Below are positions 1 to 18,234 of a stretch of DNA of 64,000 nucleotides, piece by piece. The stretch lies in NCBI GenBank assembly GCA_046483445.1, contig JAWODD010000025.1, positions 3,636 to 67,635 on the forward strand, read 5' to 3'. Position 1 is the first letter of the stretch; each line of letters starts with the position of its first letter. This DNA is from Bacillota bacterium (GTDB taxonomy: Bacteria; Bacillota; Dethiobacteria; DTU022). Below the pieces are notes generated by a model, which saw only the letters and a program-made list of their open reading frames with translations, did not search any database and had not been told where the DNA came from. The position numbers were made by a program, and so were the translations under genes.

Positions 1-273
1 GCTGAGCTATCAAGCATGCCGACTGAGTCGTCCAAAACCCCCTCATAAAAGTTTATTTTAGCCTCAGGCACCCGGTGCCCGTGGTCAGGGTATTGCACTC
101 TTTTTAGCCTTTACCCATTTTTTGCCCTAAAACTGCTCTTTGGCAATATTTGGGGCTTTATTAAAAAGGCATTTACGGAATTCCTGCCGATAGAATCAGG
201 AGCCTGACAAAATAGTGTGTAAATAGTGTGTAAATAGACTGTAGTAACTCAAAAATTTACCTAATAATTATCG

Positions 274-323
274 AACAAAGAGAAAGGACGAGGTTCAATT
301 TTCCCCGTCCTTTCTCTTTGTTT
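274..323 (-). terminator. Intrinsic terminator downstream of tRNA-Arg
   Basis: Inverted repeat AACAAAGAGAAAGGACG ... CGTCCTTTCTCTTTGTT directly after the tRNA CCA end. Confidence 0.75.
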
Positions 324-326
324 GGT

Positions 327-402
327 TGGTGCGCCTGGCAGGAATCGAACCTGCGGCACACGGATTAGGAATCCGTTGCTCTATCCCCTGAGCTACAGGC
401 GC
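327..402 (-). tRNA. tRNA-Arg(CCT)
   Basis: Reverse complement GCGCCTGTAGCTCAGGGGATAGAGCAACGGATTCCTAATCCGTGTGCCGCAGGTTCGATTCCTGCCAGGCGCACCA; anticodon arm ACGGA-TT-CCT-AA-TCCGT, TTCG T-loop, encoded CCA. Confidence 0.96.
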
Positions 403-859
403 TTGGCTTAAAATATACTGATTTTAAGGAGCGCTTAAGATATCTTGCTCTATTTCATCAATCCTGTTTTCCTTCCGGGACTGTCGATATTCCTTCTTTA
501 TTTATGATTATATCTTGAATCAGTGCTGCAGGCAATAGTTAAAAGACTAAACTCATTTACAGGGACATTAATATAAGAAGATTTCAAAGATTGTTAATTA
601 TCCTATAAATAAAAGAGCACTTTAATCTTAAGATACCCATGGTAGCGGCAGCAAGAGTAAGAAAAGTGATGAAAAAGGCGGCGAAAAAGAGTTTAACGCC
701 CTCGTGGACACTTTTATAACCTTTGAAGTTACAACACCTGGTATGTTATCTTTGTGTATGTATTTGCCTGGTTTGGTAGGGTGCGTCACCTGATAAAAAT
801 CATAAAGAGGGGTTAGCTAGAATGAAATACTGTTAGAGTAGACTGTATTTAGAATGCGG

Positions 860-886
860 GAAGGATATTTTTAATTCCTGCCGAAG
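860..886 (+). promoter_or_regulatory. Putative sigma-H-like promoter of the lipoprotein operon
   Basis: GAAGGATAT...CCGAAG; AGGA-N17-GAAG versus the sigma-H consensus AGGA-N17/18-GAAT. Confidence 0.35.
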
Positions 887-975
887 TAATATACATTAGT
901 AGCTCCATAAACAAATATAACACTGTATGGAGATCTTAACATCACATTTAAATTAAATTAAAGGAGGGAACACAG

Positions 976-1338
976 TTGAAGTTTTTAAAAGCCTTTGTAT
1001 CATTATTAATTTTGCTGACTTTACTGCTTGTAGCAGTAGGATGTGATTCTGCGCCTAGCGGCGAAAACGGAGAGGAGGTAGTTGTTCAAGGAGAAGCCCA
1101 TGGGTACAATGATGAAGTTCCTATTGAGGTCGAGGTTACAGTGGTGAACGATGAAATAACGGATATAGAAATAATTGGACACGAAGAATCAGAAGATGTT
1201 TGTGAACCGGCTTTAGAAGAAATTCCAGCAAGGATCATCGATAACCAAAGCACCGATGTGGATGCGGTTTCAGCAGCTACTGAAACCTCAAAGGGAATTA
1301 TGAAAGCAGTGGAAAACGCTCTTGAATCAATTGAGTGA
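976..1338 (+). CDS. FMN-binding domain lipoprotein (ApbE flavinylation substrate)
   Basis: Lipobox VAVGC; GEAHGYN..IEVEVTV..I.DIEI fold pattern; flavinylation-like motif VDAVSAATETS; RBS AAGGAGGG, TTG start. Confidence 0.85.
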   Translation: MKFLKAFVSLLILLTLLLVAVGCDSAPSGENGEEVVVQGEAHGYNDEVPIEVEVTVVNDEITDIEIIGHEESEDVCEPALEEIPARIIDNQSTDVDAVSAATETSKGIMKAVENALESIE

Positions 1339-1390
1339 TTAGATGAACAGTAATGATTTTCATAATGAATTTTTCAAGGAGGTTTTAATT

Positions 1391-2056
1391 ATGCCAGAAA
1401 AAGACAATTTGATGACCAGAAAAGACTTCTTAAAGAACGTAGGAATATTTACCGCTGGGACTGTTTTACTCACCAGCACGGGGGGGTTATTGTACGGATG
1501 CTCTCCCGAAGAAGCAGCTACTTCTAACGGAAACGGAATTGAAACTCCTGAATGGCCGTTCCCTTACAAAAAAATTGACCCCGACCTGGTAGCTGAAAGG
1601 GCTTATGAAGGTTATAAGGAAGGCCATGGCTGAGGCACTGGTGTAGCCGAGGGTCTTCTCGGCACGCTCTCTGAAGAGGTTGGTTACCCCTATAACCAGG
1701 TTCCTCCCAAAGCTGTCTGGCTGTTCAGAGGTGGAATTGGTGGGACCCACTCAATTTGTGGAACATTGCCTGCGGCTGCCTTGATACTGGGCCTTTCCGC
1801 CGATACGGATACCCAAATGGAGCTGGTAAAAGAGCTACTTGCCTGGTACAAAGAATTTCCTTTTCCTGAATATCAGCCAGCAGGGCTGGATCTGCCTACC
1901 AGTGTTGCTGATTCAGAAAACTGTGAGAATTCGGTAATGACCTGGGTTGAGGAAAGTGGTTATGAATATGGTAGTGATGAACGTAAGGAGCGCTGTGCAG
2001 GGGTTACTGCCGATGTAGCCAAGCATACTGCAGAACTTCTAAACGGAACTGTTTAA
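1391..2056 (+). CDS. Tat-exported C-GCAxxG-C-C family (split-Soret-cytochrome-like) selenoprotein, 221 aa, Sec at codon 81 (TGA 1631-1633)
   Basis: ORFs 1343..1633 and 1766..2056 share a frame, with only one TGA between them (GHG-U-GTGVAEG...GGIGGTHSICGTL...ERKERCAGVTADVA); Tat-like TRKDFLK, lipobox LYGC; SECIS-like hairpin 3' of the TGA; RBS AAGGAGG before ATG 1391. Confidence 0.85.
1631..1663 (+). promoter_or_regulatory. Bacterial SECIS-like element
   Basis: TGA + 12 nt + stem GCCGAG / loop GGTCTT / CTCGGC; GGTCT starts 19 nt after the TGA, as in fdhA. Confidence 0.75.
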
Positions 2057-2098
2057 TTCTGTTGCCTGAACATGAGGTGACCATTGGGAGGTGATATT

Positions 2099-3136
2099 GT
2101 GAAAAAAGCTTTTTTATTGTTAATGATACTTTCTCTCACTCTTTTAATAGTGGCAGGTTGTGAGGAAACACCGATTGATGAAGAGCCGGAAGAAGGAGGG
2201 GTAGAAAGCCTGGGTATGGGTGTGGTAACATCAATAGGCCGCTCAAAGGATCTTGATGAAGAAAATGATGTCCTACCCTTAGGTCAAGTTGACAGCGTAA
2301 TTGCTGCCGCTACTTTTGATCAAGAAGGCAAGGTAGTTGAAGTAAGCATTGACACTGCTCAGGTAAAGATTCAATTCGATGAAGATCTTCAATTGGTATC
2401 GGATCCGGCTGAAGAAATCTTGACCAAAAAAGAACTTGGTGATGATTACGGTATGCGTGATGCTTCTGAAATCGACAAAGAGTGGGATGAACAAATTGCC
2501 GCTTTGGAAGAATGGATGGTCGGTAAGACCGTAGAAGAAATTACGTCCCTGGAGCTGCTTGAAGACGGAGCTCCAGATGATTCCGACCTGGTAACATCAG
2601 TTACTATAACTGTAACCGATTATATTGCAGCCCTTGATAAAGCCTATGCCAACAGTGTCAATGTTCAGCCCGGTGCAGAAGCACTTGGCCTTGGCCATAA
2701 CATTTCCATAGGTCGTTCTACAAGCCTGGATTCAGACAATGACACAATGCCCACGGCTCAGGCCGATGTGGTTATTGCCGCAGCCGTATTTGACGATGCA
2801 GATCAGGTGGCCGGAGTTATGATTGATACGGCCCAAACCAGGGTTAACTTTGATGAAGAAGGTCAGGTGACTTCCGATCCTACAGTCGAATATCCGACCA
2901 AAAAAGAACTTGGCGATGAGTACGGTATGCGCGATGCTTCTGAAATCGACAAAGAGTGGGATGAACAAATTGCCGCTTTGGAAGAATGGATGGTCGGTAA
3001 GACGGTAGAAGAAATTACGTCCCTGGAGCTGCTTGAAGATGGAGCTCCAGATGATTCCGACCTGGTAACATCAGTTACTATAACTGTGACTTCTTACTTG
3101 GAAGCGCTGGATGAGGCTTACAGCAGGGCCCGTTAA
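2099..3136 (+). CDS. Lipoprotein with two tandem FMN-binding-like domains
   Basis: Lipobox IVAGC; two ~158-aa repeats, each with TKKELGD.YGM..AS...EW.EQ...GKT.EEI...DLVTSVTITV; RBS GGGAGGTG before GTG 2099. Confidence 0.7.
   Translation: MKKAFLLLMILSLTLLIVAGCEETPIDEEPEEGGVESLGMGVVTSIGRSKDLDEENDVLPLGQVDSVIAAATFDQEGKVVEVSIDTAQVKIQFDEDLQLVSDPAEEILTKKELGDDYGMRDASEIDKEWDEQIAALEEWMVGKTVEEITSLELLEDGAPDDSDLVTSVTITVTDYIAALDKAYANSVNVQPGAEALGLGHNISIGRSTSLDSDNDTMPTAQADVVIAAAVFDDADQVAGVMIDTAQTRVNFDEEGQVTSDPTVEYPTKKELGDEYGMRDASEIDKEWDEQIAALEEWMVGKTVEEITSLELLEDGAPDDSDLVTSVTITVTSYLEALDEAYSRAR
2422..3087 (+). repeat. Intragenic direct repeat, 192 bp x2 (2422-2613 and 2896-3087), about 5 mismatches
   Basis: Direct comparison of both copies; offset 474 nt. 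Confidence 0.9.
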
Positions 3137-3207
3137 GATGGTTTAAGATTTATGCTCCGGGTTAATACTATAACTGGACCGGAGTCACGGGTAACTTGTT
3201 AAGGTTC

Positions 3208-3258
3208 AGGGCACTTTTGGCAGTTTCAGGGACAACCTGTTGGCCGGAAGTGCCCTTG
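3208..3258 (+). terminator. Hairpin after the lipoprotein operon
   Basis: AGGGCACTTTTGGC ... GCCGGAAGTGCCCT imperfect inverted repeat. Confidence 0.45.
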
Positions 3259-3373
3259 TAATTTAAAATAGCGAAACAATGATGACAGAAGCAGAGGAAT
3301 TATTTTATGGTAAACTTTTGATTATTGTTGTAAGGTAATACCTGCATTTTTAGTTAAGTATCGGAGGATTGCA

Positions 3374-3454
3374 ATGGATCACCCGGTAGATTCTTTAGGT
3401 GATATATGCCCTATCGCTGGCAGAATGGTAATTCCCATGCCTGATGAAATATAG
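3374..3454 (+). pseudogene. Possible truncated TusA/SirA-family fragment (26 codons)
   Basis: RBS GGAGG, MDHPVDSLGDICPIAGRMVIPMPDEI*; VDSLGDICPI resembles the TusA lD..G..CP.P motif. Confidence 0.35.
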
Positions 3455-3489
3455 CAGAAATGAATGAGTGATCGGGTGATCGCGATCTA

Positions 3490-3518
3490 TTGACATAAAT
3501 AATTGTTATAGGTATAAT
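3490..3518 (+). promoter_or_regulatory. Consensus sigma-A promoter of the fdh-rnfCD operon
   Basis: TTGACA-N17-TATAAT, perfect match. Confidence 0.85.
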
Positions 3519-3635
3519 TGCTTCGAATGTAAAACAGTTTAACTTATTTATTCATGATTTGCCGTTGAGATCTATCATAACTAATTAGAAATAGAGCTAA
3601 ATTGTAAAGCCCTTGTAAGAGGGTTTTACAATTTT

Positions 3636-3653
3636 ATGTGATAGTAATCACAA
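3636..3653. promoter_or_regulatory. Putative Rex (NADH/NAD+ sensor) operator
   Basis: ATGTGATAGTAATCACAA versus the consensus TTGTGAA-N4-TTCACAA, located in the fdhE leader. Confidence 0.55.
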
Positions 3654-3739
3654 TGTTTGTGTTGTTTATAATAGTGGAAATATAAAAAATGCGACAACAA
3701 CGTGACAGGAACTTAACTTAGATTGAGGGGTGTTATTAA

Positions 3740-4639
3740 TTGACAAAACTTGATCGGGCTAATTGGGAAGAGGAGATAAAGCGCTGCACAAGGCTGTACG
3801 GCAGCTTTGGTGATGCTGAACCTTTTGTCCGGGCGGTCTATAGTGCTGCAGAAGATTTCTTTAAGAATAACTCTTTAGATGTTGTCCCTCATTTTGACGC
3901 TGATGAAGCGGAAAAAATGATCAGAGCCGGTAGATGTATTAATTTAAATCCACCCATGGATACAACTCTGGTAACAAGTTTTTTAAAAAAAATGAATGAG
4001 TCTTTGTTAAAAGTTAATCCACAACTGAAAGATACAGTAAAAGAACTGGAGCAAAAATATGAGCAGTTTTTAAATAGATTTCCGGATGAGGTAAGTAAGG
4101 AGAATGTAATTGAACTGCGCGATTATCTGATTAAAGAAACTGGGTTGGAAAAAGATCTGGCCACGTTTCTTTTTTCATTTTTATTATCTTCAATGTACCG
4201 GCCGCAGTTATATTCTATCAGCGAGGTCCTGCGGACAGACCTCTGGGAAAGGGGGGATTGCCCATTGTGTGGTGAAAAACCTCATTTCGGTTATTTGACA
4301 CAAGAATCAGGTAAAAAAATGCTTGTGTGCTGGCTTTGTGGAACCGAGTGGTTACACACCCGCATTAAATGTCCGTACTGTGACAATGAAGATCATGAAA
4401 AACTTGGTTATTTTACTGTTGAAGACAGTGAAATTTGCCGGGTAAACTTTTGTCAGGTTTGCTACCAGTATTACAAGATTTTTGATGCAAGGAGGTTAAA
4501 TGCGGATGGAATCAAGGATTTGTCCATCCACAATCTGGCTACAGTATCCCAAGATTTGTTGGCCAGACAGGAGGGATTTTTACCCGGTTCCGGTATGGAA
4601 TGGGTCAATGACACTGAAGTGCCGGACAGACAAGACTAG
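3740..4639 (+). CDS. fdhE: Formate dehydrogenase accessory protein FdhE
   Basis: W.RGDCPLCG, CWLCGTEW..TRIKCPYC and CQVC..Y.K Cys pairs; lies upstream of fdh. Confidence 0.9.
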   Translation: MTKLDRANWEEEIKRCTRLYGSFGDAEPFVRAVYSAAEDFFKNNSLDVVPHFDADEAEKMIRAGRCINLNPPMDTTLVTSFLKKMNESLLKVNPQLKDTVKELEQKYEQFLNRFPDEVSKENVIELRDYLIKETGLEKDLATFLFSFLLSSMYRPQLYSISEVLRTDLWERGDCPLCGEKPHFGYLTQESGKKMLVCWLCGTEWLHTRIKCPYCDNEDHEKLGYFTVEDSEICRVNFCQVCYQYYKIFDARRLNADGIKDLSIHNLATVSQDLLARQEGFLPGSGMEWVNDTEVPDRQD

Positions 4640-4654
4640 GAGGTGGATTTACTA

Positions 4655-7600
4655 ATGAATTTAACTCGACGCAGCTTCTTGAAACTAGCAGGTGTAACAA
4701 CTGCTGCAGCTACGTTGACTGGCGTAGGCCTGAATAAGGCTTTTGCGTCTTCCAGCGATCCGATACGGATCAAGTATACAAAGGAACTTCATACAGTATG
4801 TACTTTTTGTGGAGTTGGCTGTGGAATAATTTGTAACGTTAGGGATGGTTTGATTGTCAATACGGAAGGCGATCCCGATCATCCAATTAACGAAGGTACT
4901 CTTTGTAGTAAAGGTAGTTCTCACTACAATATGGCTTATATTTACAATGAGAAGGGCAAACCAGAACCCAATCCGAAGCGCCTAACCCGCCCGCTCTACC
5001 GTGCTCCAGGAGCCAGCAGTTATGAAACTGTTGATTGGGACTGGGCTTTAGAAGAAATTGCCAAGCGGGTAAAGGAAACTCGCGATGACAATTTTGAAGA
5101 AACTGCTAATGTAGATGGCAGGCAAGTAACGGTAAACAGGACCAATGCAATATCCTGGCTGGGTAGCGCTTTTTGCACCGACGAGGAAAATTATCTTTTC
5201 CACAAAATGGCTCGGAGTATGGGGGTTATTAATATAGACCACTGTGCCCGCCTCTGACACTCTACCACAGTCGCCGGTCTCGGCGCCACGTTTGGTAGAG
5301 GTTGCATGACCAATCACTGGATTGATTACCAGCATTCCGATGTTTTCATGAATATCGGGGGCAATACTGCTGAAAACCATCCTATCTCAATGAAATGGAT
5401 TGAAAAAGCCCGGGAAAATAAAGGATCCAAGCTGATTGTAGTCGACCCCCGTATATCTCGTACTGCGGCGGTGGCTGATCATTATGTAAGTATTCGACCG
5501 GGAACAAATATTGCCTATCTCGGTGGATTGATCAACTATATAATTGAAAATCAACGCCATCATAAGGTATACGTGGAAAACTACACTAACGCTTCTTACC
5601 TGGTCAAAGAAGGTTTCGATTTTGACGAAGAAACCGGCCTCTTTTCCGGTGTTGAAGATGATCCGGTTCGTAATGCTAAAAAATATGATCAAGAAACCTG
5701 GGAATATCAAACCGACGAAGAAGGTAATGTCCTTAAAGATCCCGAGTTGAAGGATCCGAACTGTGTTTGGCAGTTAATGAAGGATCACTACAGCAAGTAC
5801 ACTATTGAAAATGTTAGCAAAATTACCGGTGCTGATCCCGATGCTTTAAGAGAATCATACGAGCTGTTCAGCGCTAGTGGTGAACCCGGAAAAGCGGGTA
5901 ATATTATGTATGCTATGGGCATAACCCAGTTTACGCATGGGGCTCAGAACGTTCGCTCTATTGCTATAGTCCAGCTTATGCTTGGAAACATGGGTATTGC
6001 CGGGGGCGGCGTTAACGCCCAGCGTGGTCAGTCTAACGTACAGGGTGCAACAGATATGTGCATACTTTATCATATAGTACCCGGTTATATGGCTACCCCG
6101 CAGCAGGCAAAACATGCCACGTTAGATGACTATATCGAGGTTGAGACTCCTGATGCGGGATGGTGGACTAACAAACCAAAGTATTTTGTAAGTTTGTTAA
6201 AAGCGTTTTATGGTGATAACGCCACAGACGCCAATGAATTTGGCTATCAGTGGCTTCCTAAGCTTGATGGTCTAGACCATTCCCATATTGCCATGTATAA
6301 GCTAATGGGTGAAGGTGAAGTGGAAGGAATGTTTTGCTGGGCTGATAACCCCGGCGTATCCGGACCGAGTTCCGCTTCGAAGCGTAACTATCAGAAAAAC
6401 CTGAAATGGCTGGTTTCAGTCGATTTGTTTGAAAACGAGACTGCTTCTTTCTGGCAGGGTCCTGGTATGGAGCCGAGTGAAATTGATACAGAAGTATTCA
6501 TTCTTCCCGCTGCTGCCGGTTATGAACGTGAAGGCAGTAAGGCCAATAGCGGCCGCTGGATTCAATGGGCTTGGAAATGTCAGGATCCCCCCGGAGAGGC
6601 CAAATCGGATCTCTGGATTGTCAATGAACTGTTTAAAAAGCTGCAGGCACTGTATGATGCGGAAGGTGGCGTAGTGCCTGAACCAATAACCAATATGTTC
6701 TGGGATTATGACGGCCCAGATGGAGAAGTTGATATTGTTAAAGTTTGTAAGGATATTAACGGTTACAATACTTATAACGATTCCTTGGTTACGAATTTTG
6801 TCAGTTTGGAGGATGATGGTTCAACAGCTTGCGGCAATTGGCTCTACAGCGGTTACTATAACAACTATGAAAATCCTGCTACCAAGAACAGGGAAAAAGA
6901 AAAAGAAGGGATAGGTTCACACCTGGGCTGGTCCTTCGCATGGCCTTTAAACCGGCGTATTGTTTACAACCGTGGTTCAGCTGATTTGGAAGGTAATCCC
7001 TGGAACCCGGACGCTCCTGTTGTTTGGTGGGATGAAGACCAGGAGAAATGGGTCGGTAATGATGTTCCGGATATTCCTGGTAGCTGGGACTTGGAACAGT
7101 CAACAGAAAATCCGTTCATTATGCTGCCGGAAGGTGTAGGAAGGTTGTTTTCAGTGAAAGCCCTGAAAGACGGACCTTTGCCTGCTCACTATGAACCTGC
7201 GGAAAGCCTGGTGTCCAACCTGCTTTACCCGAAAGCCACATACAACCCAATTAGCCAGCGTTTCTATGAAGATCATACTGTAGAAACTGACGAAGAAAGG
7301 GAACAATACCCTTACATAATTACCACTTATCGGATTGTTGAACACTTTCAAACGGGAATTGTTACCCGTAACATTCCCTGGCTGAACGAATTAATGCCCG
7401 AACTGTTCATTGAGTTAAGTGAAGAGCTAGCTGAAGAACTGAATATTAGCAATGGGGATGAGGTAATTGTAGAAAGCAAACGGTTGTTAAAGGATGGGGA
7501 ACAAGGTTCTATCAAAGCTAAAGCCTGTGTCACCAAGCGGTTTAAGCCGATGGAGATTCAAGGTGAGAAAAGACACGTTGTCGGAATGCCCTGGCACTGG

Positions 7601-7720
7601 GGATTTAAAGGTATGAGCAACGGCTCCATAACCAATGATTTGAGCGCATCAGTCGGTGATGCCAATACCACCATTCCAGAGTCCAAGGCATTTCTGTGCA
7701 ATATAAGGAGGGCTGTATAA
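4655..7720 (+). CDS. fdhA: Tat-exported Mo/W selenocysteine formate dehydrogenase alpha subunit (FdnG-like), Sec at TGA 5255-5257
   Basis: TRRSFLK Tat motif; CTFCGVGC...[43 protein letters not shown] joins 4643..5257 and 5306..7720 in frame; RGQSNVQG; C-terminal molydop-binding domain. Confidence 0.96.
5255..5285 (+). promoter_or_regulatory. SECIS element of fdhA
   Basis: TGA followed by CGCCG-GTCT-CGGCG hairpin; GGTCT starts 19 nt after the TGA. Confidence 0.8.
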
Positions 7721-8512
7721 ATGGCAAAACAAATCTGCTTAATAGATGCCTCCAAATGCATCGGCTGCAGAGGATGCCAGGTTGCCTGCAAGCAATGGAA
7801 CCAGCTGCCGGCTGCAGATACTACGTTTGAAGGAAGTTATGAAAATCCGCCTGCACTTTCATCTACAACGTGGATGCGAATTATGTTCAGGGAATATGAA
7901 AATGAAAATAGTAATGGTAAAGTTGATTGGTTAATGTCCAAGCAGGGTTGTATGCACTGCAGTGATGCCGCCTGCATGCAAGCTTGCCCGGCCGGTGCTA
8001 TTTACCGTACGGAGTTCGACACGGTTATGGTTGATGAACTTAAATGTATCGGCTGCAATTATTGCGCTGCAGCCTGTCCTTTCGATGTGATTGGTTTTGA
8101 CCGCCTGGCTAATAAAGCACGAAAATGTACTTTTTGTCTTGATCGTTTGGAAAACGGCTTAAAACCGGCCTGTGCTACAGCATGTCCGAGCGGTTCAATA
8201 GAATTTGGCGACAGCAGAGAGCTGATTTCTAAAGCACAGAGCCGGGAAGCTGAGCTAAAAGCGGCGGGCAAAACAAATGCCACTATTTACGGTTTGGATG
8301 AGGTTGATGGGACAGGGATGCTCTATGTTTTGGCCGACAAGCCTGAAAAGTATGGTTTTCCGGCCGATCCACAGGTCCCGATTCAAACCCGTATTTGGAA
8401 TACCGTATATGCACCATTACGCGTATTTGTTGTAATTGCGGTTGCTTTTGGCTTGTGGGTTAATAGAGCCCAGAGCAAGAAAGTTGAAGAAGGTAAGAGC
8501 AAAACGAAATAA
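7721..8512 (+). CDS. fdhB: Formate dehydrogenase iron-sulfur beta subunit with C-terminal membrane anchor (FdnH-like)
   Basis: CIGCRGCQVACK, CMHCSDAAC..ACP, CIGCNYCAAACP, CTFC..R...PACATACP; C-terminal hydrophobic helix. Confidence 0.93.
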   Translation: MAKQICLIDASKCIGCRGCQVACKQWNQLPAADTTFEGSYENPPALSSTTWMRIMFREYENENSNGKVDWLMSKQGCMHCSDAACMQACPAGAIYRTEFDTVMVDELKCIGCNYCAAACPFDVIGFDRLANKARKCTFCLDRLENGLKPACATACPSGSIEFGDSRELISKAQSREAELKAAGKTNATIYGLDEVDGTGMLYVLADKPEKYGFPADPQVPIQTRIWNTVYAPLRVFVVIAVAFGLWVNRAQSKKVEEGKSKTK

Positions 8513-8529
8513 CACGGGGGTGAAATCAA

Positions 8530-9843
8530 GTGGAAATAAAACAGTTTTTTGGTGGAATTAACATACCCCACCATAAAAGCTTTACTGAACATAAGGCCAT
8601 AAAAGAAACTTCTTTGCCTGAAGAGATAATTGTCCCGCTTGTACAGCATACCGGTGCTCCCAACGAACCGCTGGTACAAGTTGGTGATAAGGTTAAAGCA
8701 GGGCAAAAAATAGGAGACAGCGACAAATTTGTCAGTGCTCCTGTCCATACCGGCCTTTCAGGCACGGTTACAGCCATTGAACCTCGAACCTTTACAACCG
8801 GGGATATGATTGACAGTATTGTTATTGCTGTCGATAAAGAGCAGGATCAACTGGAACTGGCTGACAATGATCTTGATAACATGAGCAAAGAAGACATTAC
8901 AAACGCAGTAAAGGAAGCAGGAATTGTTGGAATGGGTGGTGCCGCATTCCCAACCTCAGTCAAGCTTAGCCCTCCTCCCGAGAAAGAGGTTGACTCCTTG
9001 ATAATAAATGGTTGTGAATGTGAACCCTTTCTTACCTGTGATCACCGGATTATGCTTGAAAAACCGGAAGAGATTCTACAGGGTATAAAACTGCTGATGA
9101 AGAAACTTGATGTGGAACATGCTTACTTTTGTATTGAGGATAACAAAGACGATGCAATTGAAGCTGTCCGCCAGAAAAATGATGATCCGCGGATAGTTCT
9201 ACTGCGGATGCCGACTAAATATCCGCAAGGCTCGGAAAAACACCTGGTTAAAGCAGCCCTGGACCGGGAGATTCCTTCCGGTGGTCTGCCTTTTGATGTA
9301 GGGACTTTGATTCAAAATGTCGGGACTTGTGTGGCTATTTATGAGGCGGTTAGGTTCAACAAGCCGCTTATCGAGCGAGTGGTAACAGTAACTGGACCCA
9401 ACATTAATAATCCACAAAATCTAATGGTTAAAATTGGCACTCCACTTTCTCATCTAATCGAAGAATGCGGTGGAATTGTTGAAGAGCCAGCCAAGGTAGT
9501 AGTTGGCGGTCCGATGACTGGAAGCTCACAACATACACTTGAAGTGCCAGTAGTTAAAGGAACAACTGGGGTTGTGATTCTTCCTCCAGATATGGCTATA
9601 GAAGATATGGAGTATTCTGACTGTGTGCGATGCTGCAAGTGTGTAGAACATTGTCCCATGCTGCTTTACCCAAACCAGATCAGCATCTTTTGTGAGGCCG
9701 GTATGGTTGAAGAAGCATATGAATGGAATACAATTGATTGTATTGAATGTGGTATTTGCGCCTATGTGTGTCCTTCAAGAAGACCGATTACCCAGTTGGT
9801 TCAGCGGACTAAGCCGTTGATTCAGGAAATGCTGCGCAAGTAA
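8530..9843 (+). CDS. rnfC: RnfC/RsxC NADH-FMN-2[4Fe-4S] subunit
   Basis: QHTGAP, GIVGMGGAAFPT, NGCECEPFLTCDHR, YPQGSE, GGPMTG, two ferredoxin Cys motifs. Confidence 0.93.
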   Translation: MEIKQFFGGINIPHHKSFTEHKAIKETSLPEEIIVPLVQHTGAPNEPLVQVGDKVKAGQKIGDSDKFVSAPVHTGLSGTVTAIEPRTFTTGDMIDSIVIAVDKEQDQLELADNDLDNMSKEDITNAVKEAGIVGMGGAAFPTSVKLSPPPEKEVDSLIINGCECEPFLTCDHRIMLEKPEEILQGIKLLMKKLDVEHAYFCIEDNKDDAIEAVRQKNDDPRIVLLRMPTKYPQGSEKHLVKAALDREIPSGGLPFDVGTLIQNVGTCVAIYEAVRFNKPLIERVVTVTGPNINNPQNLMVKIGTPLSHLIEECGGIVEEPAKVVVGGPMTGSSQHTLEVPVVKGTTGVVILPPDMAIEDMEYSDCVRCCKCVEHCPMLLYPNQISIFCEAGMVEEAYEWNTIDCIECGICAYVCPSRRPITQLVQRTKPLIQEMLRK

Positions 9844-9878
9844 TAATTTGTATTGATGGGAAAAGGAGGTAAAAAATA

Positions 9879-10859
9879 GTGAGCGAAATGCAGAAATTTA
9901 TCACGTCCTCGTCTCCTCATATTAGGAGTGGCGAAACTATATCAAATGCCATGCGGGATGTTTTCATTGCCCTGATGCCTGTTACGTTGGTTTCAATATA
10001 CTTCTTTCAGGCCTATGCAGTATTAACTATTGCAGTATGTTTAATTACTGCTGTTTTAACTGAGCTCTTGTTTAGAAAGATTATGCAAAAAAAGCCTACC
10101 CTAAATGACTGGAGCGCTTTGCTGACCGGTTTGTTTGTGGCCCTGCTCTTTTCTGCCACAGCTCCATGGTATAAAGCGGCGTTGGCCACCTTTATTGCTG
10201 TTGGAATTGCCAAGGAACTGGCGGGTGGATTGGGTTGGAACCGCTTTAATCCAGCCTTATTTGGCAGGGTTGCCTTGATCATTCTGGCCCCACTTTATGC
10301 TTATATTAACCAGTGGTTCCAGCCCCTGAGTATTAACCTGGGCTCAATCGATACAGTCAGCCAGGCTACACCGCTGGCTATGCTGCGTGCGGGATTGGAA
10401 ATGCCCTCTATGACTGAATTATTCTTTGCATTTCCAGGAGGAGCGTTATCGGAGGTTTCGCCCTTTGCTCTATTATTGGGCGCTGCTTATCTATTTTATA
10501 AACAGCACATCAGTTGGCGAATACCAGTTTCTATTCTAGCCACTGTAATTGTTTTAACGCTTATTACTGGAGAAAACCCGGTTTATCACTTAATTACAGG
10601 AGGGTTGATTCTTGGATCATTTTTCATGGCTACCGACTGGGTAACCAGCCCCTTTACTGAAAAAGGTAAAATCATTTTTGGTATCGCCATTGGGGTCCTG
10701 ATAGTTGTTTTCCGAGTGGGCTTTTTAATTACCGAAGGTGCTGCCTATTCAATCTTAATTATGAATGCCTTTGTGCCTTTGATTGAGAAAATGACAGCGC
10801 GCTCCCATTTTGGCAAGATCAAAGCGGTTGCTGTGCCAATGGCGGAGAGTAAGAAATAA
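9879..10859 (+). CDS. rnfD: RnfD/RsxD membrane flavoprotein
   Basis: SSPHI, GGLGWNRFNPAL.GR, flavinylation site DTVSQATPL, FFMATDWVTSP. Confidence 0.93.
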   Translation: MSEMQKFITSSSPHIRSGETISNAMRDVFIALMPVTLVSIYFFQAYAVLTIAVCLITAVLTELLFRKIMQKKPTLNDWSALLTGLFVALLFSATAPWYKAALATFIAVGIAKELAGGLGWNRFNPALFGRVALIILAPLYAYINQWFQPLSINLGSIDTVSQATPLAMLRAGLEMPSMTELFFAFPGGALSEVSPFALLLGAAYLFYKQHISWRIPVSILATVIVLTLITGENPVYHLITGGLILGSFFMATDWVTSPFTEKGKIIFGIAIGVLIVVFRVGFLITEGAAYSILIMNAFVPLIEKMTARSHFGKIKAVAVPMAESKK

Positions 10860-10967
10860 GGAACGGTAGCTACTAAATTGATCTGCAAAATTTATATTAG
10901 GACATATTGTTATAAAAGCAGTACTTAAATAGGATAGCAGAAGTTAAAAAAAGCATAAAATGTTTAG

Positions 10968-11011
10968 AATTTAGAAGGCTGTTGGGAAACAAACCAACAG
11001 CCTTCTAAATT
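10968..11011. terminator. Bidirectional terminator between rnfD and the mrp operon
   Basis: Long perfect inverted repeat AATTTAGAAGGCTGTTGG / CCAACAGCCTTCTAAATT between convergent genes. Confidence 0.85.
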
Positions 11012-11047
11012 TCGATGCCGGGAAATGAAACGGGTTTTCCGGCTAGA

Positions 11048-13039
11048 TTATATGAGCAGTGAAAGGCCGAAACGCAGGAAAAAGGCGACGGCTAGAATTA
11101 TGCTGAGGGCAATTAAAACCAAAGTCATATCAAACTCAATGTTCCTGATATTGATAGACCTGAACAGGGTCGACTCCCCGGGCCGATAGTCGACATTTTG
11201 TAGTAACAAGAATATTCTATTGAAGAGGCGTTGAGAAAAGATACTTAAATAATTTTGCACTGCTATAAAGGGCAAGGTTAAAATGGTCCATAAAACTACA
11301 GCCAGCCTGAAGGTAAGTACACCGTAATATTCAAGACCCAGCCAATATGGAATGCTCAAATTAAAAAGGCCGGAATAGCGGGCCAGGAAAAACAAAACAG
11401 TGCCAAGCCCCAGGGCAAGCGCGACAGCGGTTAAGTCTTTAACTATGAACAGGTTGGTATTTGACAGATATTCTACCAGGTGAGGATCAAGGGTAAAGGC
11501 GTTCAAAGCGGGAACAATCAGATTGTGCAGGATAAAATATGGCGATATGCCGATGATAATCATGCTGACAGCCAGTGTGCCCATGCTAATCTTCATCAGA
11601 AGCGGTTCAGTCTTAATTTTGCCAGGGTTGGTTTGCGCTGGACGCCAAAAGGTAAAGTAAAGGAATTTTAAAAAGTAACAGACTGTACCGGCGCTGGTTA
11701 GAGTAAAGATTTTTTCAGCAATATAAAGGGAATAGACGTGGTGGTGTTCATAAGCTTCGACGATAGCGTGGTGTAGAAGAGTTTTACTGGCGTAACCGTT
11801 AAAAAGGGGCATCCCAACTATACCAAGGGAAGCAATTAGAACTACAATCGTTGTAAAAGGCATTGTTTTTTTCAAATCACCCAATCTACGCATGTCAAGT
11901 TCACCAGTCAAAAAGGCAATAGATCCGGCGGCAAGGAAAAGGGTAGATTTAAAAAACGCATGGTTAAATACATGGTAAGTTGCCCCGGCAATGCCCATGG
12001 CCCCTTCGTAACCCAGGTATGCTCCTACGCCTGCACCCATTATAATATAGCCGATCTGGCTGATACTACTGCAGGCAAGAAGCTTCTTGATGTTATTTTG
12101 TAATAAAGCTAAGAAAAATCCCAAAAACATTGTTATAATACCGATCCAAATAATCAGGTATCCCCATTCGGCAACCTCCGTTTGGAGGCTGGTGGCCCAT
12201 GTAATAATATCTGTACCGGTCGTGCTTGCTTCGGGGGTATAAATCAGACTGATTGTCCGAATAATGCCGTAAGCCCCGGTTTTAATCATAATCCCTGAAA
12301 GTAAAGCGCTGGCCGGAGCAGGAGCTACCGGGTGAGCCCTGGGTAGCCAGATATGAAGTGGAATCATCCCGGCTTTAATACCAAAACCGATGATCATTAA
12401 AGCGGCAGCAACAATATAATAATTATCCAGACCTTCAAGTAAACAAGACTGGGGTGCAATAGTTAGAGAACCACATTGAAAATAAAAAAGCCCAATCCCC
12501 GTAAGGAGACACATTCCTCCGAAAATTCCCAGGTAAAGGTAGAGATTGCCCGCGCTTACGGCTTCTTTTGTTTGGGTATGGACAACAAGCACATAAGAGG
12601 CCAGTGACATCAATTCAAAAAATAAAAGCAGGGTTAGCAAATCCCCGGCCAGGGGAACACCGACCGTTCCGCAAAGAGTTAACATGAAAAAAGCGAAAAA
12701 ACGGCCCCGGTTTTCTTCATGGTTCATATACTCAAGGGCAAAGATTGTAGCCGTAAACCATACAAATGAAATAATCAGGGCGAAAAGAAAACCAAATTCA
12801 TCGACCCGAAAGAAGAAGTTGTAAGGGGTTACAATCATGGGTAATTTAAATGTAATAATCTGTCCCTGTGCCAGGCTTAAATACATCAGAGCAACTGAAA
12901 TCAGAGTGCCTGCACTGCCAATGATTGACCAGCTATTGCGCCACCAGGGAACATCCTGGGCAAAGATAATCATCATAAAAGAGAAAAGAGGTATGATTAC
13001 AGCTATAAGTGGTAGATATGGGAACAACTCCTGGAGCAT
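11048..13039 (-). CDS. Mrp antiporter-like pump subunit, long (terminal) type with ~54-aa lateral segment
   Basis: FFELMSL, GFGIKAG..PLHIWLPRAHPVAP, LLACSSISQIG, HAFFKS, SKTLLHHA; C-terminal extension and final TM helix. Confidence 0.88.
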   Translation of the reverse strand: MLQELFPYLPLIAVIIPLFSFMMIIFAQDVPWWRNSWSIIGSAGTLISVALMYLSLAQGQIITFKLPMIVTPYNFFFRVDEFGFLFALIISFVWFTATIFALEYMNHEENRGRFFAFFMLTLCGTVGVPLAGDLLTLLLFFELMSLASYVLVVHTQTKEAVSAGNLYLYLGIFGGMCLLTGIGLFYFQCGSLTIAPQSCLLEGLDNYYIVAAALMIIGFGIKAGMIPLHIWLPRAHPVAPAPASALLSGIMIKTGAYGIIRTISLIYTPEASTTGTDIITWATSLQTEVAEWGYLIIWIGIITMFLGFFLALLQNNIKKLLACSSISQIGYIIMGAGVGAYLGYEGAMGIAGATYHVFNHAFFKSTLFLAAGSIAFLTGELDMRRLGDLKKTMPFTTIVVLIASLGIVGMPLFNGYASKTLLHHAIVEAYEHHHVYSLYIAEKIFTLTSAGTVCYFLKFLYFTFWRPAQTNPGKIKTEPLLMKISMGTLAVSMIIIGISPYFILHNLIVPALNAFTLDPHLVEYLSNTNLFIVKDLTAVALALGLGTVLFFLARYSGLFNLSIPYWLGLEYYGVLTFRLAVVLWTILTLPFIAVQNYLSIFSQRLFNRIFLLLQNVDYRPGESTLFRSINIRNIEFDMTLVLIALSIILAVAFFLRFGLSLLI

Positions 13040-13041
13040 CT

Positions 13042-14523
13042 TTAGTTACCTCCCAAATGAAACAGGTACTCGGCAATATTATGAAAATAAGGGACTGTTA
13101 ATTGCAGGTTCGCACCGATTACCAGGCACCCTGCAACCAGAACCAATATCGGTATCAACATTGAAAGGGGAGCTTCAGTGCCTTTGACCGAGTCAAACTC
13201 ACCCTTTTTGAAAAAGGCGGCAATTACAATTGGTAAAAAGTAGGCGGCATTTAAAAGGGCGCTGCCAATTAAAACAGCCACAAAAATCGGGGCTCCGCTT
13301 TCAAGGCTGCCCTGGATTAAATACCACTTGGAAATAAATCCGTTAACCGGGGGAATTCCGATCATTCCGATAGAAGCGATCGTGAAAGCAATCATAGTCA
13401 GCGGCATTCGTTTGCCCAGACCATTTAGTTCACTAATATTCTTTTTTCCAGTTACTGTAATTATGGCCCCGGCGCAAAAGAAAAGGGTAATTTTTAAAAG
13501 GGCATGGTTAATGATATGCAAGAGGCCGCCGGTCAGGCCGATTATATTAAATAGTCCGGCCCCGAGGGTGATATAACCCAGCTGACTTATGGTTGAAAAG
13601 GCCAATCTTCGTTTGAGGACATCCTGCTGTAAGGCAATAATTGAGGCTACAATGATTGTAATGGAAACAAGTCCCGCCACGAAAAAACCCATTTGCAAAC
13701 CAATCAAGGCAGTTATACCAAAAACAGAGTACATTATACGCACAATACCAAAAACACCGGACTTTACTACTGCTACAGCATGAAGCAGGGCGCTGACCGG
13801 AGTTGGTGCCACCATGGCAGCTGGAAGCCATGCATGGAGGGGCATAATGGCTGCTTTAACTCCAAAACCGACAATGAAGCAAATAAAGGCGATTTGCCAC
13901 AGTATCAACGAACCGCTGGAAAGATCTACAATTCCGCCTCTGGTAAACTCAAGAGTGCCTACAGAGCCGTATGTTAAAATTAAACCGATCAAAATTAAAC
14001 CAGCGCCAAAAAAGCTGTAGATCAGGTACTTAATACCGGCTAATTTAGCTTCTTTGTTACCTTCATGAATAACAAGCGGATAAGTAAATATTGTCAAAAA
14101 TTCATAAAATAGGTATAATGTAAGCAGGTTTGATGCAAAAGCTATACCCATAGTCATGCTTAAGGAAAGGAGGTAAAAAATATAATAGCGGCGGCGATTG
14201 TGTTCATGGGCCATGTAACCTGTTGAGTAAAGAACGGAAAAAAACCAGAGAATACCGGCCGTTCCAGCAAATAAAGCGGCAAAGGGTTCCACTCGCAGCT
14301 TTACTTCCAGTCCTGGGACGATCCGATGAATTAAAATCTCCCAATTGCCTAGATAAGAAAAGTGGTACAACATATAAGCCACAGCCAGTGCACTAGCCAG
14401 GCTTATAAGGGTTACCACGGGATTGCGCAAACGATCATTATTTTCCGGAATCAGGCTGGTAAGCAGTGCTCCAGCCAGGGGAAAGAGTATTAAGAACACT
14501 GGTAAATAATATGCAAATTCCAT
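13042..14523 (-). CDS. Mrp antiporter-like pump subunit, short, NuoL/MrpA-type signature
   Basis: WLPAAMVAPTPVSALLHAVAVVKSG, LKRRLAFSTISQLG, NGFISKW. Confidence 0.88.
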   Translation of the reverse strand: MEFAYYLPVFLILFPLAGALLTSLIPENNDRLRNPVVTLISLASALAVAYMLYHFSYLGNWEILIHRIVPGLEVKLRVEPFAALFAGTAGILWFFSVLYSTGYMAHEHNRRRYYIFYLLSLSMTMGIAFASNLLTLYLFYEFLTIFTYPLVIHEGNKEAKLAGIKYLIYSFFGAGLILIGLILTYGSVGTLEFTRGGIVDLSSGSLILWQIAFICFIVGFGVKAAIMPLHAWLPAAMVAPTPVSALLHAVAVVKSGVFGIVRIMYSVFGITALIGLQMGFFVAGLVSITIIVASIIALQQDVLKRRLAFSTISQLGYITLGAGLFNIIGLTGGLLHIINHALLKITLFFCAGAIITVTGKKNISELNGLGKRMPLTMIAFTIASIGMIGIPPVNGFISKWYLIQGSLESGAPIFVAVLIGSALLNAAYFLPIVIAAFFKKGEFDSVKGTEAPLSMLIPILVLVAGCLVIGANLQLTVPYFHNIAEYLFHLGGN

Positions 14524-14561
14524 TGCTTCCTATTCCTCTCTCTATAGATGTTATCTTGGTT

Positions 14562-14882
14562 TTATTTTTCTTTGTGGTTTGTACTTCTGGTCCCCCAGAC
14601 CAACATAATTGAAACTACTGCCACAAAAAGTACAGTTGATTCCATTAGGGTATCGTAGCCCCTGTAGTCAAGCAAAACGTTCGATACCAGGTTTGTTCCT
14701 CCACTCTCTTCAACGCCTTCATAAACATAACGTTCCCAAACCTGGTTAAAAGGAGGATTATCAGGATTGCCGTACTGGGGCATCTCGGCAACGGTTAGCA
14801 TGAGCATAAAAGCAATTATTGATACCAAAATTAATGCCATGATGAAAAACAGTATTCGATGCGTTAAATTCATTGCGGCCAC
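14562..14882 (-). CDS. Mrp/Mbh small subunit (MbhE/MnhB N-terminal type)
   Basis: GGTNLVSNVLLDYRGYDTLMESTVLF motif. Confidence 0.85.
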   Translation of the reverse strand: MAAMNLTHRILFFIMALILVSIIAFMLMLTVAEMPQYGNPDNPPFNQVWERYVYEGVEESGGTNLVSNVLLDYRGYDTLMESTVLFVAVVSIMLVWGTRSTNHKEK

Positions 14883-15506: not shown

Positions 15507-15542
15507 TTATTTCACCCCGGTTTACGGTTTTTAAGCCGTTAC

Positions 15543-16327: not shown

Positions 16328-16349
16328 CTCCTATGGGTTCGCGGTTAAA

Positions 16350-17858: not shown

Positions 17859-17871
17859 TTAGTGGCACCTC

Positions 17872-18231: not shown

Positions 18232-18234
18232 AAT

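What the first reader, a model, noticed from the sequence alone, without database searches (positions are those of the whole stretch)
3740..10859. Extracytoplasmic Sec-formate dehydrogenase fused operonically to a half-Rnf (RnfC+RnfD only)
Seen: fdhE-fdhA(Tat, Sec)-fdhB(TM anchor)-rnfC-rnfD with gaps of 0-35 nt, one perfect promoter and a strong terminator. There is no FdnI/cytochrome b or NrfD subunit and no rnfA/B/E/G. Established: in Rnf, electrons reach RnfD's covalent FMN (motif here SQAT) from the outer-face carrier RnfG, then pass to cytoplasmic RnfC and NAD+. Inference: FdhB replaces RnfG as the outer-face partner, giving a quinone-independent transmembrane formate:NAD+ oxidoreductase. 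It would be electrogenic and possibly Na+-coupled, which suits interspecies formate transfer in a syntroph. Similar gene arrangements may have been noted in syntroph genomes, but I know of no biochemical characterisation.
Basis: partly seen in the sequence, partly recalled or inferred. Interest (0 to 1): 0.85.

Follow-up and report, generated by a model that had tools for sequence, protein, structure and literature searches.

The report
Formate dehydrogenase wired to half an Rnf
An outward-facing selenium-containing formate dehydrogenase is encoded in one operon with only the two NADH-side subunits of an Rnf complex, an arrangement conserved in dozens of alkaliphile and digester genomes that probably links outside formate to inside NADH without quinones but has never been tested biochemically.

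Summary
Window 3740-10859 holds fdhE, fdhA (Tat signal, in-frame TGA for selenocysteine), fdhB (four [4Fe-4S] sites, C-terminal membrane helix), rnfC and rnfD. Gaps are 0-35 nt. A 12/12 sigma-70 promoter lies upstream and a 19-bp hairpin downstream.

These rnfCD genes are paralogues. The same genome has a complete rnfCDGEAB on another contig, and it has no FdnI-type cytochrome b or NrfD gene.

The paralogous RnfD forms its own clade (SH-aLRT 99). In 80 loci from public genomes, rnfC is adjacent in 74 and an FdhB-like gene in 69. All but one of the exceptions are cut by a contig end. No rnfG/E/A was found in any locus; two weak cRnfB hits overlap the ferredoxin genes.

The FMN-threonine and both riboflavin ligands of RnfD are invariant. 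A complex prediction for FdhB with RnfD gave only weak support (0.37 against 0.00 for controls).

The best reading is a quinone-independent FdhAB-RnfCD formate:NAD(H) oxidoreductase, electrogenic but without the Rnf sodium pump module.

The idea is not new. A 2016 paper and a 2025 preprint note or name it, with metaproteomic detection, but there is no biochemistry.

What appears new is that the same RnfCD-ferredoxin core also sits beside periplasmic [NiFe] hydrogenases and a PhsA-like molybdoenzyme.

The parts
3490..3518 (+). sigma-70-type promoter TTGACA-17 nt-TATAAT, 221 nt upstream of fdhE
   Evidence: 12 of 12 matches; the only perfect site in 3000-11200; sequence read
3740..4639 (+). fdhE-like accessory protein (299 aa, four CxxC pairs)
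   Evidence: FdhE_central 28.7 bits, above its cut-off of 27; FdhE_C 23.3 bits, below its cut-off of 27; TIGR01562 54 bits, below cut-off 187.65; conserved upstream of fdhA in related loci
4643..7720 (+). fdhA, FDH-N-type catalytic subunit, Tat signal RRSFLK, selenocysteine at residue 205
   Evidence: TIGR01553 1135 bits over cut-off 814; Pfam Molybdopterin, Molybdop_Fe4S4, Molydop_binding, TAT_signal
5255..5257 (+). in-frame TGA read as selenocysteine
   Evidence: tRNA-Sec and SelB are in the genome
5256..5305 (+). SECIS-like hairpin directly after the TGA
   Evidence: -24.3 kcal/mol, z -1.8; Rfam SECIS_3, 24.3 bits, below gathering score 63
7721..8512 (+). fdhB, four-[4Fe-4S] ferredoxin subunit with C-terminal membrane helix and Lys-rich tail
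   Evidence: TIGR01582 224 bits, below cut-off 334.7; 16 invariant Cys, invariant P232 and R234, near-invariant L245, W246, N248 at the helix; nearest solved chain is E. coli FdnH 1kqf_B, E 3e-63
8530..9843 (+). rnfC paralogue (NADH/FMN domain, SLBB, two [4Fe-4S] motifs)
   Evidence: Complex1_51K 168 bits, RnfC_N 122 bits; TIGR01945 523 bits over cut-off 246; about 45% identical to canonical RnfC
9879..10859 (+). rnfD paralogue (polytopic membrane flavoprotein; FMN-Thr164 in SQAT; riboflavin ligands N124, D253)
   Evidence: TIGR01946 266 bits over cut-off 207; alignment to 9eri_D and 7zc6_D; residues invariant in 35 sequences; separate clade
10967..11012 (.). 19-bp hairpin between the convergent rnfD (+) and mrp (-) operons, a likely bidirectional terminator
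   Evidence: -30.5 kcal/mol, z -6.8; not listed by the pattern scan (short T run)

Best explanation
The operon encodes one membrane complex, FdhAB-RnfCD.

FdhA (Sec, Mo or W) is exported by Tat together with FdhB and sits on the outer face of the membrane. FdhB's C-terminal helix holds it there. FdhB's chain of four [4Fe-4S] clusters exchanges electrons with the FMN bound covalently to Thr164 of the RnfD paralogue, taking the place that RnfG has in a full Rnf. Inside RnfD the electron passes FMN, then riboflavin, across the membrane to the two [4Fe-4S] clusters and the FMN of cytoplasmic RnfC, which reacts with NAD+/NADH.

The result is a reversible, quinone-independent formate:NAD(H) oxidoreductase. 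Two charges cross the membrane per formate, so it is electrogenic. Formate oxidation would build membrane potential. NADH-driven CO2 reduction to formate would be pulled by membrane potential. It has no RnfA/E and therefore no Rnf-type Na+ pump.

Shown here: gene content, conservation of the unit, cofactor residues, and absence of other membrane partners in the genome. Inferred: the FdhB-RnfD contact, NAD(H) as the cytoplasmic partner, the direction and the energetics.
For: **Own paralogue clade.** RnfD here is 42% identical to the canonical copy on C29, against 54-84% to orthologues. The clade has SH-aLRT 99 with a stem of 0.84.

**Synteny in 80 genome loci.** rnfC is adjacent in 74 of 80; five of the six exceptions have the contig end within 129 nt. 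An FdhB-like gene is adjacent in 69 of 80; all 11 exceptions have 1433 nt or less upstream. No rnfG/E/A hit of 40 bits or more was found in any locus. The same queries found rnfCDGEAB in 10 of 11 control loci, and all but rnfG in the eleventh, L135.

**No alternative partner.** The genome has no FdnI-type cytochrome b or NrfD, and the canonical rnf operon has its own C and D.

**Cofactor sites.** A. woodii FMN-T156 and riboflavin ligands N123 and D249 (PMC11889175, section 7) align to T164, N124 and D253. All three are invariant in 35 sequences. One ApbE flavin transferase gene is present.

**FdhB.** It has 16 invariant Cys and conserved residues flanking the membrane helix, including in the hydrogenase-linked homologues.

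**Independence from RnfA/E.** rnfA/E-like genes are lacking in 4 of 40 other carrier genomes. All four are Dehalococcoidia-labelled MAGs.

**Complex prediction.** RnfD with FdhB scored 0.37 against a best control of 0.00. This is weak support: the mark was reached by 58 of 80 solved complexes and 2 of 110 mismatches. The runs agree in at least 76% of contacts and the partner pLDDT is at least 80.

**RNA libraries.** Contigs from four runs of one study, 99% or more identical in all but one record, cover pieces of all five genes. One (8445-8652) bridges fdhB-rnfC.

**Literature.** RnfC and FDH of unFirm_1 were detected in a metaproteome (PMC5080403). FdhAH-RnfCD is named for a Natronincolaceae MAG (10.1101/2025.07.15.664484).
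Against: - No direct evidence of a physical complex exists. The only interface test gave weak support and no contacts were reported.
- 36 of 40 other carrier genomes, and this one, also have a full Rnf, so sharing of RnfG/E/A/B cannot be excluded from gene content.
- The four MAGs without rnfA are of unknown completeness.
- In full Rnf, RnfG contacts mainly RnfA/E and only slightly RnfD (PMC11889175, section 7). An FdhB-RnfD docking surface would therefore have to be new. I found only scattered clade-specific substitutions in RnfD and no clear new loop.
- FdhB scores below the FDH-beta cut-off.
- A MenA-like prenyltransferase scores 100.6 bits against a cut-off of 102.15, so quinones are not excluded.
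- RNA-library contigs may contain DNA and cannot prove one transcript.
- One locus (L088) has rnfD and the ferredoxin gene without rnfC nearby.
Confidence: 0.6

Rival explanations
1. Hybrid Rnf. The paralogous RnfCD assembles with RnfG, E, A and B made from the canonical operon. FdhAB docks on that full complex, so formate is linked to ferredoxin and to Na+ pumping as well as to NAD.
For: This genome and 36 of 40 other carrier genomes have rnfA and rnfE elsewhere. In full Rnf the periplasmic partner of RnfD is RnfG (PMC11889175, section 7).
Against: The canonical operon carries its own rnfC and rnfD. The paralogue clade is long-branched and is always linked to an FdhB-like gene rather than to rnfG/E/A. 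Four carrier MAGs have no RnfA/E/NqrD/E-like gene. unFirm_1 was reported with only C and D (PMC5080403; its authors note the genome is incomplete).
Confidence: 0.12
2. Same complex, but with an extra extracytoplasmic flavoprotein between FdhB and RnfD. A small FMN_bind lipoprotein encoded elsewhere would act as a free-standing RnfG substitute; one lies at window 976-1338.
For: A lipoprotein with an FMN_bind domain and the flavinylation-type motif DAVSAAT lies 2.4 kb upstream. The genome has further FMN_bind genes. 'Ca. Syntrophonatronum acetioxidans' was reported with RnfC, RnfD and two RnfG genes (PMC6295475, passage read).
Against: No match to this lipoprotein or to RnfG at 40 bits or more in any of the 80 loci. 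It lies upstream of the operon's promoter and is separated from it by other genes. Short proteins can be missed by tblastn.
Confidence: 0.13
3. Coincidental or regulatory linkage. FdhAB passes electrons to another acceptor (a quinone through an unrecognised subunit, or a soluble or extracellular carrier), and RnfCD has an unrelated job.
For: No interface is demonstrated. A MenA-like gene lies just under its cut-off.
Against: Adjacency is kept through four different gene orders and across taxa labelled as different phyla. The core trio rnfC-rnfD-ferredoxin also stands alone (L092). No cytochrome b or NrfD is in the genome. FdhB's membrane helix region is conserved beyond hydrophobicity.
Confidence: 0.08

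Closest known systems
E. coli formate dehydrogenase-N (FdnGHI; PDB 1kqf)
   Same: Tat-exported Sec-containing alpha subunit (TIGR01553 above cut-off). Four-cluster beta subunit with a C-terminal membrane helix; FdnH is the nearest solved chain (E 3e-63). FdhE accessory gene.
   Different: No gamma cytochrome b and no quinone site: PF01292 is absent from the whole genome. The membrane partner encoded in the operon is RnfD, with RnfC on the inside. The beta subunit scores below the FDH-beta cut-off.
Rnf complex (RnfCDGEAB; A. woodii 9eri, C. tetanomorphum 7zc6)
   Same: RnfC and RnfD are above the family cut-offs. E is 1e-71 and 1e-70 to the solved RnfD chains. The FMN-Thr and riboflavin ligands are conserved.
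   Different: Only C and D are present. There is no RnfB (ferredoxin site), no RnfA/E ([2Fe-2S], the Na+ path according to PMC11889175) and no RnfG. It is a separate paralogue clade. The donor or acceptor on the outer face would be an FeS protein rather than a flavoprotein.
Predicted 'FdhAH-RnfCD' of Natronincolaceae JAAZJW01 (bioRxiv 10.1101/2025.07.15.664484) and the truncated Rnf next to FDH in unFirm_1 (PMC5080403)
   Same: The same gene association and the same proposed NADH link. Natronincolaceae and Alkaliphilus-labelled loci are among the 80 related loci.
   Different: Those reports are one-sentence genome or metaproteome inferences. I could not see their supplements, so identity of the clades is inferred and not tested. 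Neither reports the paralogue clade, the other catalytic heads or the cofactor residues.
E. coli hydrogenase-2 (HybOABC)
   Same: A periplasmic catalytic dimer plus a Tat-exported, membrane-anchored four-cluster ferredoxin (HybA). HybA matches at 138 bits, and the hydrogenase-linked relatives have their own Tat signals.
   Different: HybB (NrfD-type quinone subunit) is replaced by RnfD and RnfC in the related loci L088, L090, L094, L096, L102 and L106. L088 shows no rnfC.

Membership tests
FDH-N-type formate dehydrogenase alpha subunit (TIGR01553) | Whole-protein score above the curated equivalog cut-off | tested here: met
   1135.2 bits against cut-off 814.2
FDH-N-type formate dehydrogenase alpha subunit (TIGR01553) | Tat signal, and Sec (or Cys) at the active site with decoding machinery in the genome | tested here: met
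   RRSFLK and TAT_signal; TGA at residue 205; tRNA-Sec, SelB, TatC
FDH-N complex (FdnGHI) | Beta subunit equivalog (TIGR01582) | tested here: not met
   224.2 bits, below cut-off 334.7, although FdnH is the best solved match and all 16 Cys are present
FDH-N complex (FdnGHI) | Gamma subunit: dihaem cytochrome b that reduces quinone | tested here: not met
   None in the operon. PF01292 gives 0 matches in the genome, estimated 100% complete. NrfD also gives 0.
Rnf complex (RnfABCDGE) | RnfC and RnfD family scores above cut-off | tested here: met
   TIGR01945 522.9 against 245.95; TIGR01946 266.2 against 207.05
Rnf complex (RnfABCDGE) | Six subunits encoded together, including RnfA/E (membrane [2Fe-2S]), RnfG and RnfB | tested here: not met
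   Only C and D are in this operon. No G/E/A hit in any of the 80 related loci; two weak cRnfB hits overlap the ferredoxin genes. The full set exists separately on C29.
Rnf complex (RnfABCDGE) | RnfD covalent-FMN threonine and riboflavin ligands | tested here: met
   T164, N124 and D253 align to A. woodii T156, N123 and D249 and are invariant in 35 sequences. Actual flavinylation is not testable here.
Rnf complex (RnfABCDGE) | Ferredoxin:NAD+ activity coupled to Na+/H+ translocation | not testable with these tools
   Needs biochemistry. The ferredoxin-binding RnfB and the RnfA/E ion path are not encoded here.

The most novel reading that the evidence does not exclude
RnfC, RnfD and a membrane-anchored four-cluster ferredoxin form a general, quinone-independent transmembrane wire. 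It plugs the cytoplasmic NAD(H) pool into interchangeable outward-facing catalytic heads: Sec-formate dehydrogenase (49 of 80 loci), periplasmic [NiFe] hydrogenase (6 loci) and a PhsA/Psr-like molybdoenzyme (1 locus).

This would be an unrecognised family of respiratory complexes. They would conserve or spend membrane potential purely by vectorial electron transfer, and they would show how the Rnf/Nqr electron path can be cut at RnfD and re-used.
Probability: 0.45. Interest if true: 0.8.

Novelty: new variant of a known kind. Interest (0 to 1): 0.6.

Why it matters
Formate is a main interspecies electron carrier in syntrophic acetate and fatty-acid oxidation. How NADH-level electrons reach an outward-facing formate dehydrogenase without quinones is an open point in these organisms.

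A direct NAD(H)-to-outside wire would set the formate level a syntroph can sustain as a function of membrane potential, and it would change energy budgets in digester and soda-lake models. By my own estimate, 120 mV would shift the equilibrium about 10^4-fold.

It would also be a natural dissection of Rnf. It would test the claim that RnfD is only an electron wire and that ion pumping resides in RnfA/E.

Cultured carriers exist (Anoxynatronum buryatiense and A. sibiricum, loci L079 and L083), so the question is directly testable.

Tried and rejected
- The Rfam scan of 1-16000 found no riboswitch in the 221-nt leader. It found only a sub-threshold SECIS_3 hit and chance matches at the hairpin.
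- The pattern scan did not list the terminator.
- Clade-specific positions in RnfD (13 columns) gave no clear new docking loop.
- The careful tree search did not finish within the time limit, so the quick tree is reported.
- The window's upstream genes (FMN_bind lipoprotein, ORFs 1343, 1766 and 2084) were not found near the cluster in related loci: not at 60 bits or more, and the lipoprotein not at 40 bits or more. They are therefore not treated as part of the system.
- The downstream Mrp genes are syntenic in close relatives, but they are convergent and form a separate antiporter operon.
- Literature searches found no paper linking RnfC/RnfD to HybA and a periplasmic hydrogenase (0 papers), or to flavinylation, ApbE and FDH (0 papers). 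'Truncated Rnf' returned only an unrelated Methanosarcina paper. Most of the 74 'RnfCD' hits were 'rnfCDGEAB' strings.
- No cover of 3400-3655 in the four RNA-library runs. I draw no conclusion from it.
- The phylum sample found this RnfD type in only 8 of 301 genomes.


Full report
**1. What is in the sequence**

The ORF list and translations give five co-directional genes:
- fdhE 3740-4639
- fdhA 4643-7720
- fdhB 7721-8512
- rnfC 8530-9843
- rnfD 9879-10859

The gaps between them are 3, 0, 17 and 35 nt.

fdhA is open only if the TGA at 5255-5257 is read through (residue 205). It begins with a twin-arginine motif (RRSFLK). It scores 1135 bits against the FDH-N alpha equivalog TIGR01553, whose cut-off is 814. 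A hairpin follows the TGA, and Rfam gives a sub-threshold SECIS_3 hit. The genome has tRNA-Sec, SelB and two TatC genes.

FdhB has four complete cluster motifs and ends in a hydrophobic helix followed by a Lys-rich tail. Its nearest solved relative is E. coli FdnH, aligned through the membrane helix. It scores below the FDH-beta cut-off (224 against 335 bits).

RnfC and RnfD are above their NCBIfam cut-offs.

The only 12-of-12 sigma-70 match in 3000-11200 is at 3490-3518. After rnfD lies a 19-bp hairpin at 10967-11012 (-30.5 kcal/mol, z -6.8). It sits between rnfD and a convergent Mrp antiporter operon. The pattern scan did not list it because the T run is short.

**2. The rest of the genome**

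The window is part of a 2.15-Mb, 66-contig genome estimated 100% complete.
- A complete rnfC-D-G-E-A-B operon lies on contig C29. The rnfCD in the window are therefore a second, paralogous pair, 42% identical for RnfD.
- One ApbE flavin transferase gene lies on C29.
- No FdnI-type cytochrome b (PF01292) and no NrfD (PF03916) were found anywhere.
- A MenA-like gene scores 100.6 bits against a cut-off of 102.15, so I cannot say whether the organism makes menaquinone.
- This is the only FDH-N-type alpha subunit in the genome.

**3. Conservation**

In 41 genomes of the same order, including this one, 26 have an RnfD of this type by my reading of the table (52-100% identity). Canonical copies are 36-46% identical.

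I fetched 18 such regions. rnfC is adjacent in all 18. An FdhB-like gene is adjacent in 14; the other four are cut by contig ends.

A scan of one genome per species returned 80 loci, partly the same genomes. In these:
- rnfC is adjacent in 74 of 80. Five of the six exceptions end within 129 nt of rnfD. One (L088) truly lacks it within 6.3 kb.
- An FdhB-like gene is adjacent in 69 of 80. All 11 exceptions have 1433 nt or less upstream.
- No RnfG, RnfE, RnfA or FMN_bind-lipoprotein hit of 40 bits or more occurs in any locus. Two weak RnfB hits (44-45 bits) overlap the ferredoxin genes.
- As a positive control, the same queries recovered rnfCDGEAB in 10 of 11 canonical loci, and all but rnfG in the eleventh, L135.

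The record titles name the following:
- soda-lake 'Syntrophomonadaceae', Dethiobacteria, Alkaliphilus, Tindallia, Halobacteroidaceae, Dehalococcoidia and Desulfovibrio-labelled MAGs;
- digester MAGs;
- two cultured species, Anoxynatronum buryatiense and A. sibiricum.

MAG labels may include binning errors.

In an even sample of the phylum the type is rare: 8 of 301 genomes.

A quick maximum-likelihood tree of 59 RnfD sequences puts all FDH- and hydrogenase-linked copies in one clade (SH-aLRT 99, stem 0.84). This clade is apart from the canonical copies (95) and from a group of solitary RnfD-like genes (100). The careful search did not finish. Two rows had an internal stop, shown as X.

**4. 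Gene orders and other catalytic heads**

Four orders occur:
- fdhE-fdhA-fdhB-rnfC-rnfD, the commonest and the one in the window
- fdhE-rnfC-rnfD-fdhA-fdhB
- fdhA-fdhE-rnfC-rnfD-fdhB
- rnfC-rnfD-ferredoxin followed by something else

In six loci (L088, L090, L094, L096, L102, L106) what follows is a [NiFe] hydrogenase small and large subunit with maturation genes. There the ferredoxin has its own Tat signal.

In L100 a PhsA-like molybdoenzyme (415 bits, below that family's cut-off) and a four-cluster ferredoxin precede rnfD-rnfC.

In L092 the trio rnfC-rnfD-ferredoxin stands alone among unrelated genes.

FdhA is adjacent in 49 of 80 loci. Thirteen loci have the ferredoxin but no head; most of these are cut by contig ends.

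The constant core is thus RnfC, RnfD and the anchored ferredoxin.

**5. Cofactor sites**

The A. woodii Rnf paper (PMC11889175, sections 7 and 10 read) states that FMN is bound covalently to RnfD T156 and that riboflavin is held by N123 and D249. It describes the electron path as RnfG-FMN to RnfD-FMN to riboflavin to the RnfC clusters, FMN and NAD+.

In the phmmer alignment to chain 9eri_D, these residues fall on T164 (the T of SQAT), N124 and D253 of the window protein. All three are invariant in my 35-sequence alignment. The solved clostridial RnfDs have T-T-A-T at the motif, so the missing glycine is not unusual.

The N-terminal P13 and H14 are also invariant. They lie in the region said in that paper to insert into RnfC.

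In FdhB, all 16 Cys are invariant. So are P232 and R234 before the helix. L245, W246 and N248 at its end are nearly invariant, also in the hydrogenase-linked homologues. This is more conservation than a simple anchor needs (inference).

**6. Tests of association**

*Complex prediction.* RnfD and FdhB were sent with my own alignments. The score was 0.37 (runs 0.37, 0.35, 0.39) against a best control of 0.00. The tool calls this weak support:
- the mark was reached by 58 of 80 solved complexes and by 2 of 110 mismatched pairs;
- scores of 0.60 or under were seen in only 7 of those 80 solved complexes and in both mismatches that passed.

The runs agree in at least 76% of contacts, the partner pLDDT is at least 80, and no interface was given.

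*Independence from RnfA/E.* Of 40 other carrier genomes, 36 have rnfA. The four without any RnfA/E-like match are four of the five Dehalococcoidia-labelled MAGs (1.1-1.9 Mb, completeness unknown).

*Expression.* Four metatranscriptomic runs of one study hold short contigs, 99% or more identical in all but one record, from fdhE, fdhA, fdhB, rnfC and rnfD. One contig (8445-8652) bridges the fdhB-rnfC junction, and three end at 10937-10954, just before the hairpin. These are contigs from RNA libraries. They may include DNA and do not prove a single transcript.

**7. Mechanism**

I think the most likely reading (about 0.6) is one complex. FdhA and FdhB sit on the outer face, and FdhB's last cluster is within tunnelling distance of the RnfD FMN. 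The electron crosses the membrane inside RnfD to RnfC and NAD(H).

In full Rnf the outward electron leg runs through RnfA/E together with Na+, and the inward leg through RnfD (PMC11889175, section 10). Here only the RnfD leg remains. Net charge separation is therefore by the electrons themselves, two per formate, plus the scalar proton released outside and taken up inside (inference).

I recall standard potentials of about -430 mV for CO2/formate. PMC12174285 gives -320 mV for NAD+/NADH. The span of about 110 mV is of the same size as a membrane potential. The enzyme would therefore run near equilibrium, in one of two directions:
- It conserves energy when oxidising formate.
- It uses membrane potential to push NADH electrons onto CO2. 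This direction is the one proposed for the Natronincolaceae syntroph (10.1101/2025.07.15.664484).

Which direction holds in this organism is open. High external pH would favour formate oxidation (inference).

A Na+ pump of the Rnf type is unlikely, because RnfA/E are missing and that paper found no ion path in RnfD. The Nqr field has proposed a path in NqrB (PMC12174285, passage read), so this point is not closed.

**8. What is known**

- Frank et al. 2016 (PMC5080403, passage read) reported that unFirm_1 has only RnfC and RnfD, encoded next to a formate dehydrogenase, with RnfC and the FDH in the metaproteome.
- Timmers et al. 2018 (PMC6295475, passage read) listed RnfC, RnfD and two RnfG for 'Ca. 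Syntrophonatronum acetioxidans'.
- The 2025 RNF/NQR review (PMC12174285) has no occurrence of 'formate dehydrogenase' or 'RnfCD' in its main text.
- I found no paper on the hydrogenase- or PhsA-like-linked forms.

Subscription journals and the supplements of these papers were not visible to me and may hold more.

The FDH-RnfCD idea itself is thus already in print as a genomic inference. Added here are the paralogue clade, the invariant cofactor sites, the breadth and rarity of the distribution, the independence from rnfA/E in some genomes, and the modular heads.

**9. Verdict**

This is a real, conserved and biochemically untested variant of two known systems (FDH-N and Rnf). Interest is moderate to high, mainly because it is testable in cultured alkaliphiles and bears on the Rnf pumping mechanism.

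Noticed in passing
window 1343-2056 (+): One gene split by an in-frame TGA. It is a Tat-signal C_GCAxxG_C_C-family protein in which the motif cysteine position reads GHG-U-GTG, so it is probably a selenoprotein.
   Followed up: partly
window 976-1338 (+): A 120-aa lipoprotein (lipobox LVAVGC) with an FMN_bind domain and the flavinylation-type motif DAVSAAT. It is a free-standing RnfG-like extracytoplasmic flavoprotein, and it is not conserved beside the fdh-rnfCD cluster.
   Followed up: partly
window 2084-3136 (+): A 350-aa lipoprotein made of two nearly identical halves (an internal tandem duplication visible in the translation). It has no Pfam match.
   Followed up: no
window 11048-18687 (-) and 19090-28167 (+): A complete Mrp-type antiporter operon convergent on rnfD, followed on the other strand by five consecutive large antiporter-like (Proton_antipo_M) genes. 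This is an unusual density of such subunits.
   Followed up: partly
L088, L090, L094, L096, L102, L106 (e.g. L094 7606-14276): rnfC-rnfD-Tat-ferredoxin followed by [NiFe] hydrogenase small and large subunits and maturation genes. L088 has rnfD without rnfC nearby.
   Followed up: partly
L100 5897-11453: A PhsA-like molybdoenzyme and a four-cluster ferredoxin, followed by rnfD and then rnfC. This is a third kind of catalytic head and a different gene order.
   Followed up: partly
L141-L145 (e.g. L141 6653-7483): Relatives carry a third, solitary RnfD-like gene (about 300 aa, 41-45% identical) with no rnf neighbours. It forms its own clade.
   Followed up: no
G000 C29:52906-53454 (L005 6652-7512): The canonical RnfG of this genome has two FMN_bind domains in one 286-aa protein.
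   Followed up: no
L058 / L023 and L103 / L028: Some relatives have a second fdhA-fdhB pair directly after rnfD. One contig carries a second fdhA and a second rnfD of this type.
   Followed up: no
window 330-402 (-): A tRNA gene (Rfam 71 bits) upstream of the region.
   Followed up: no
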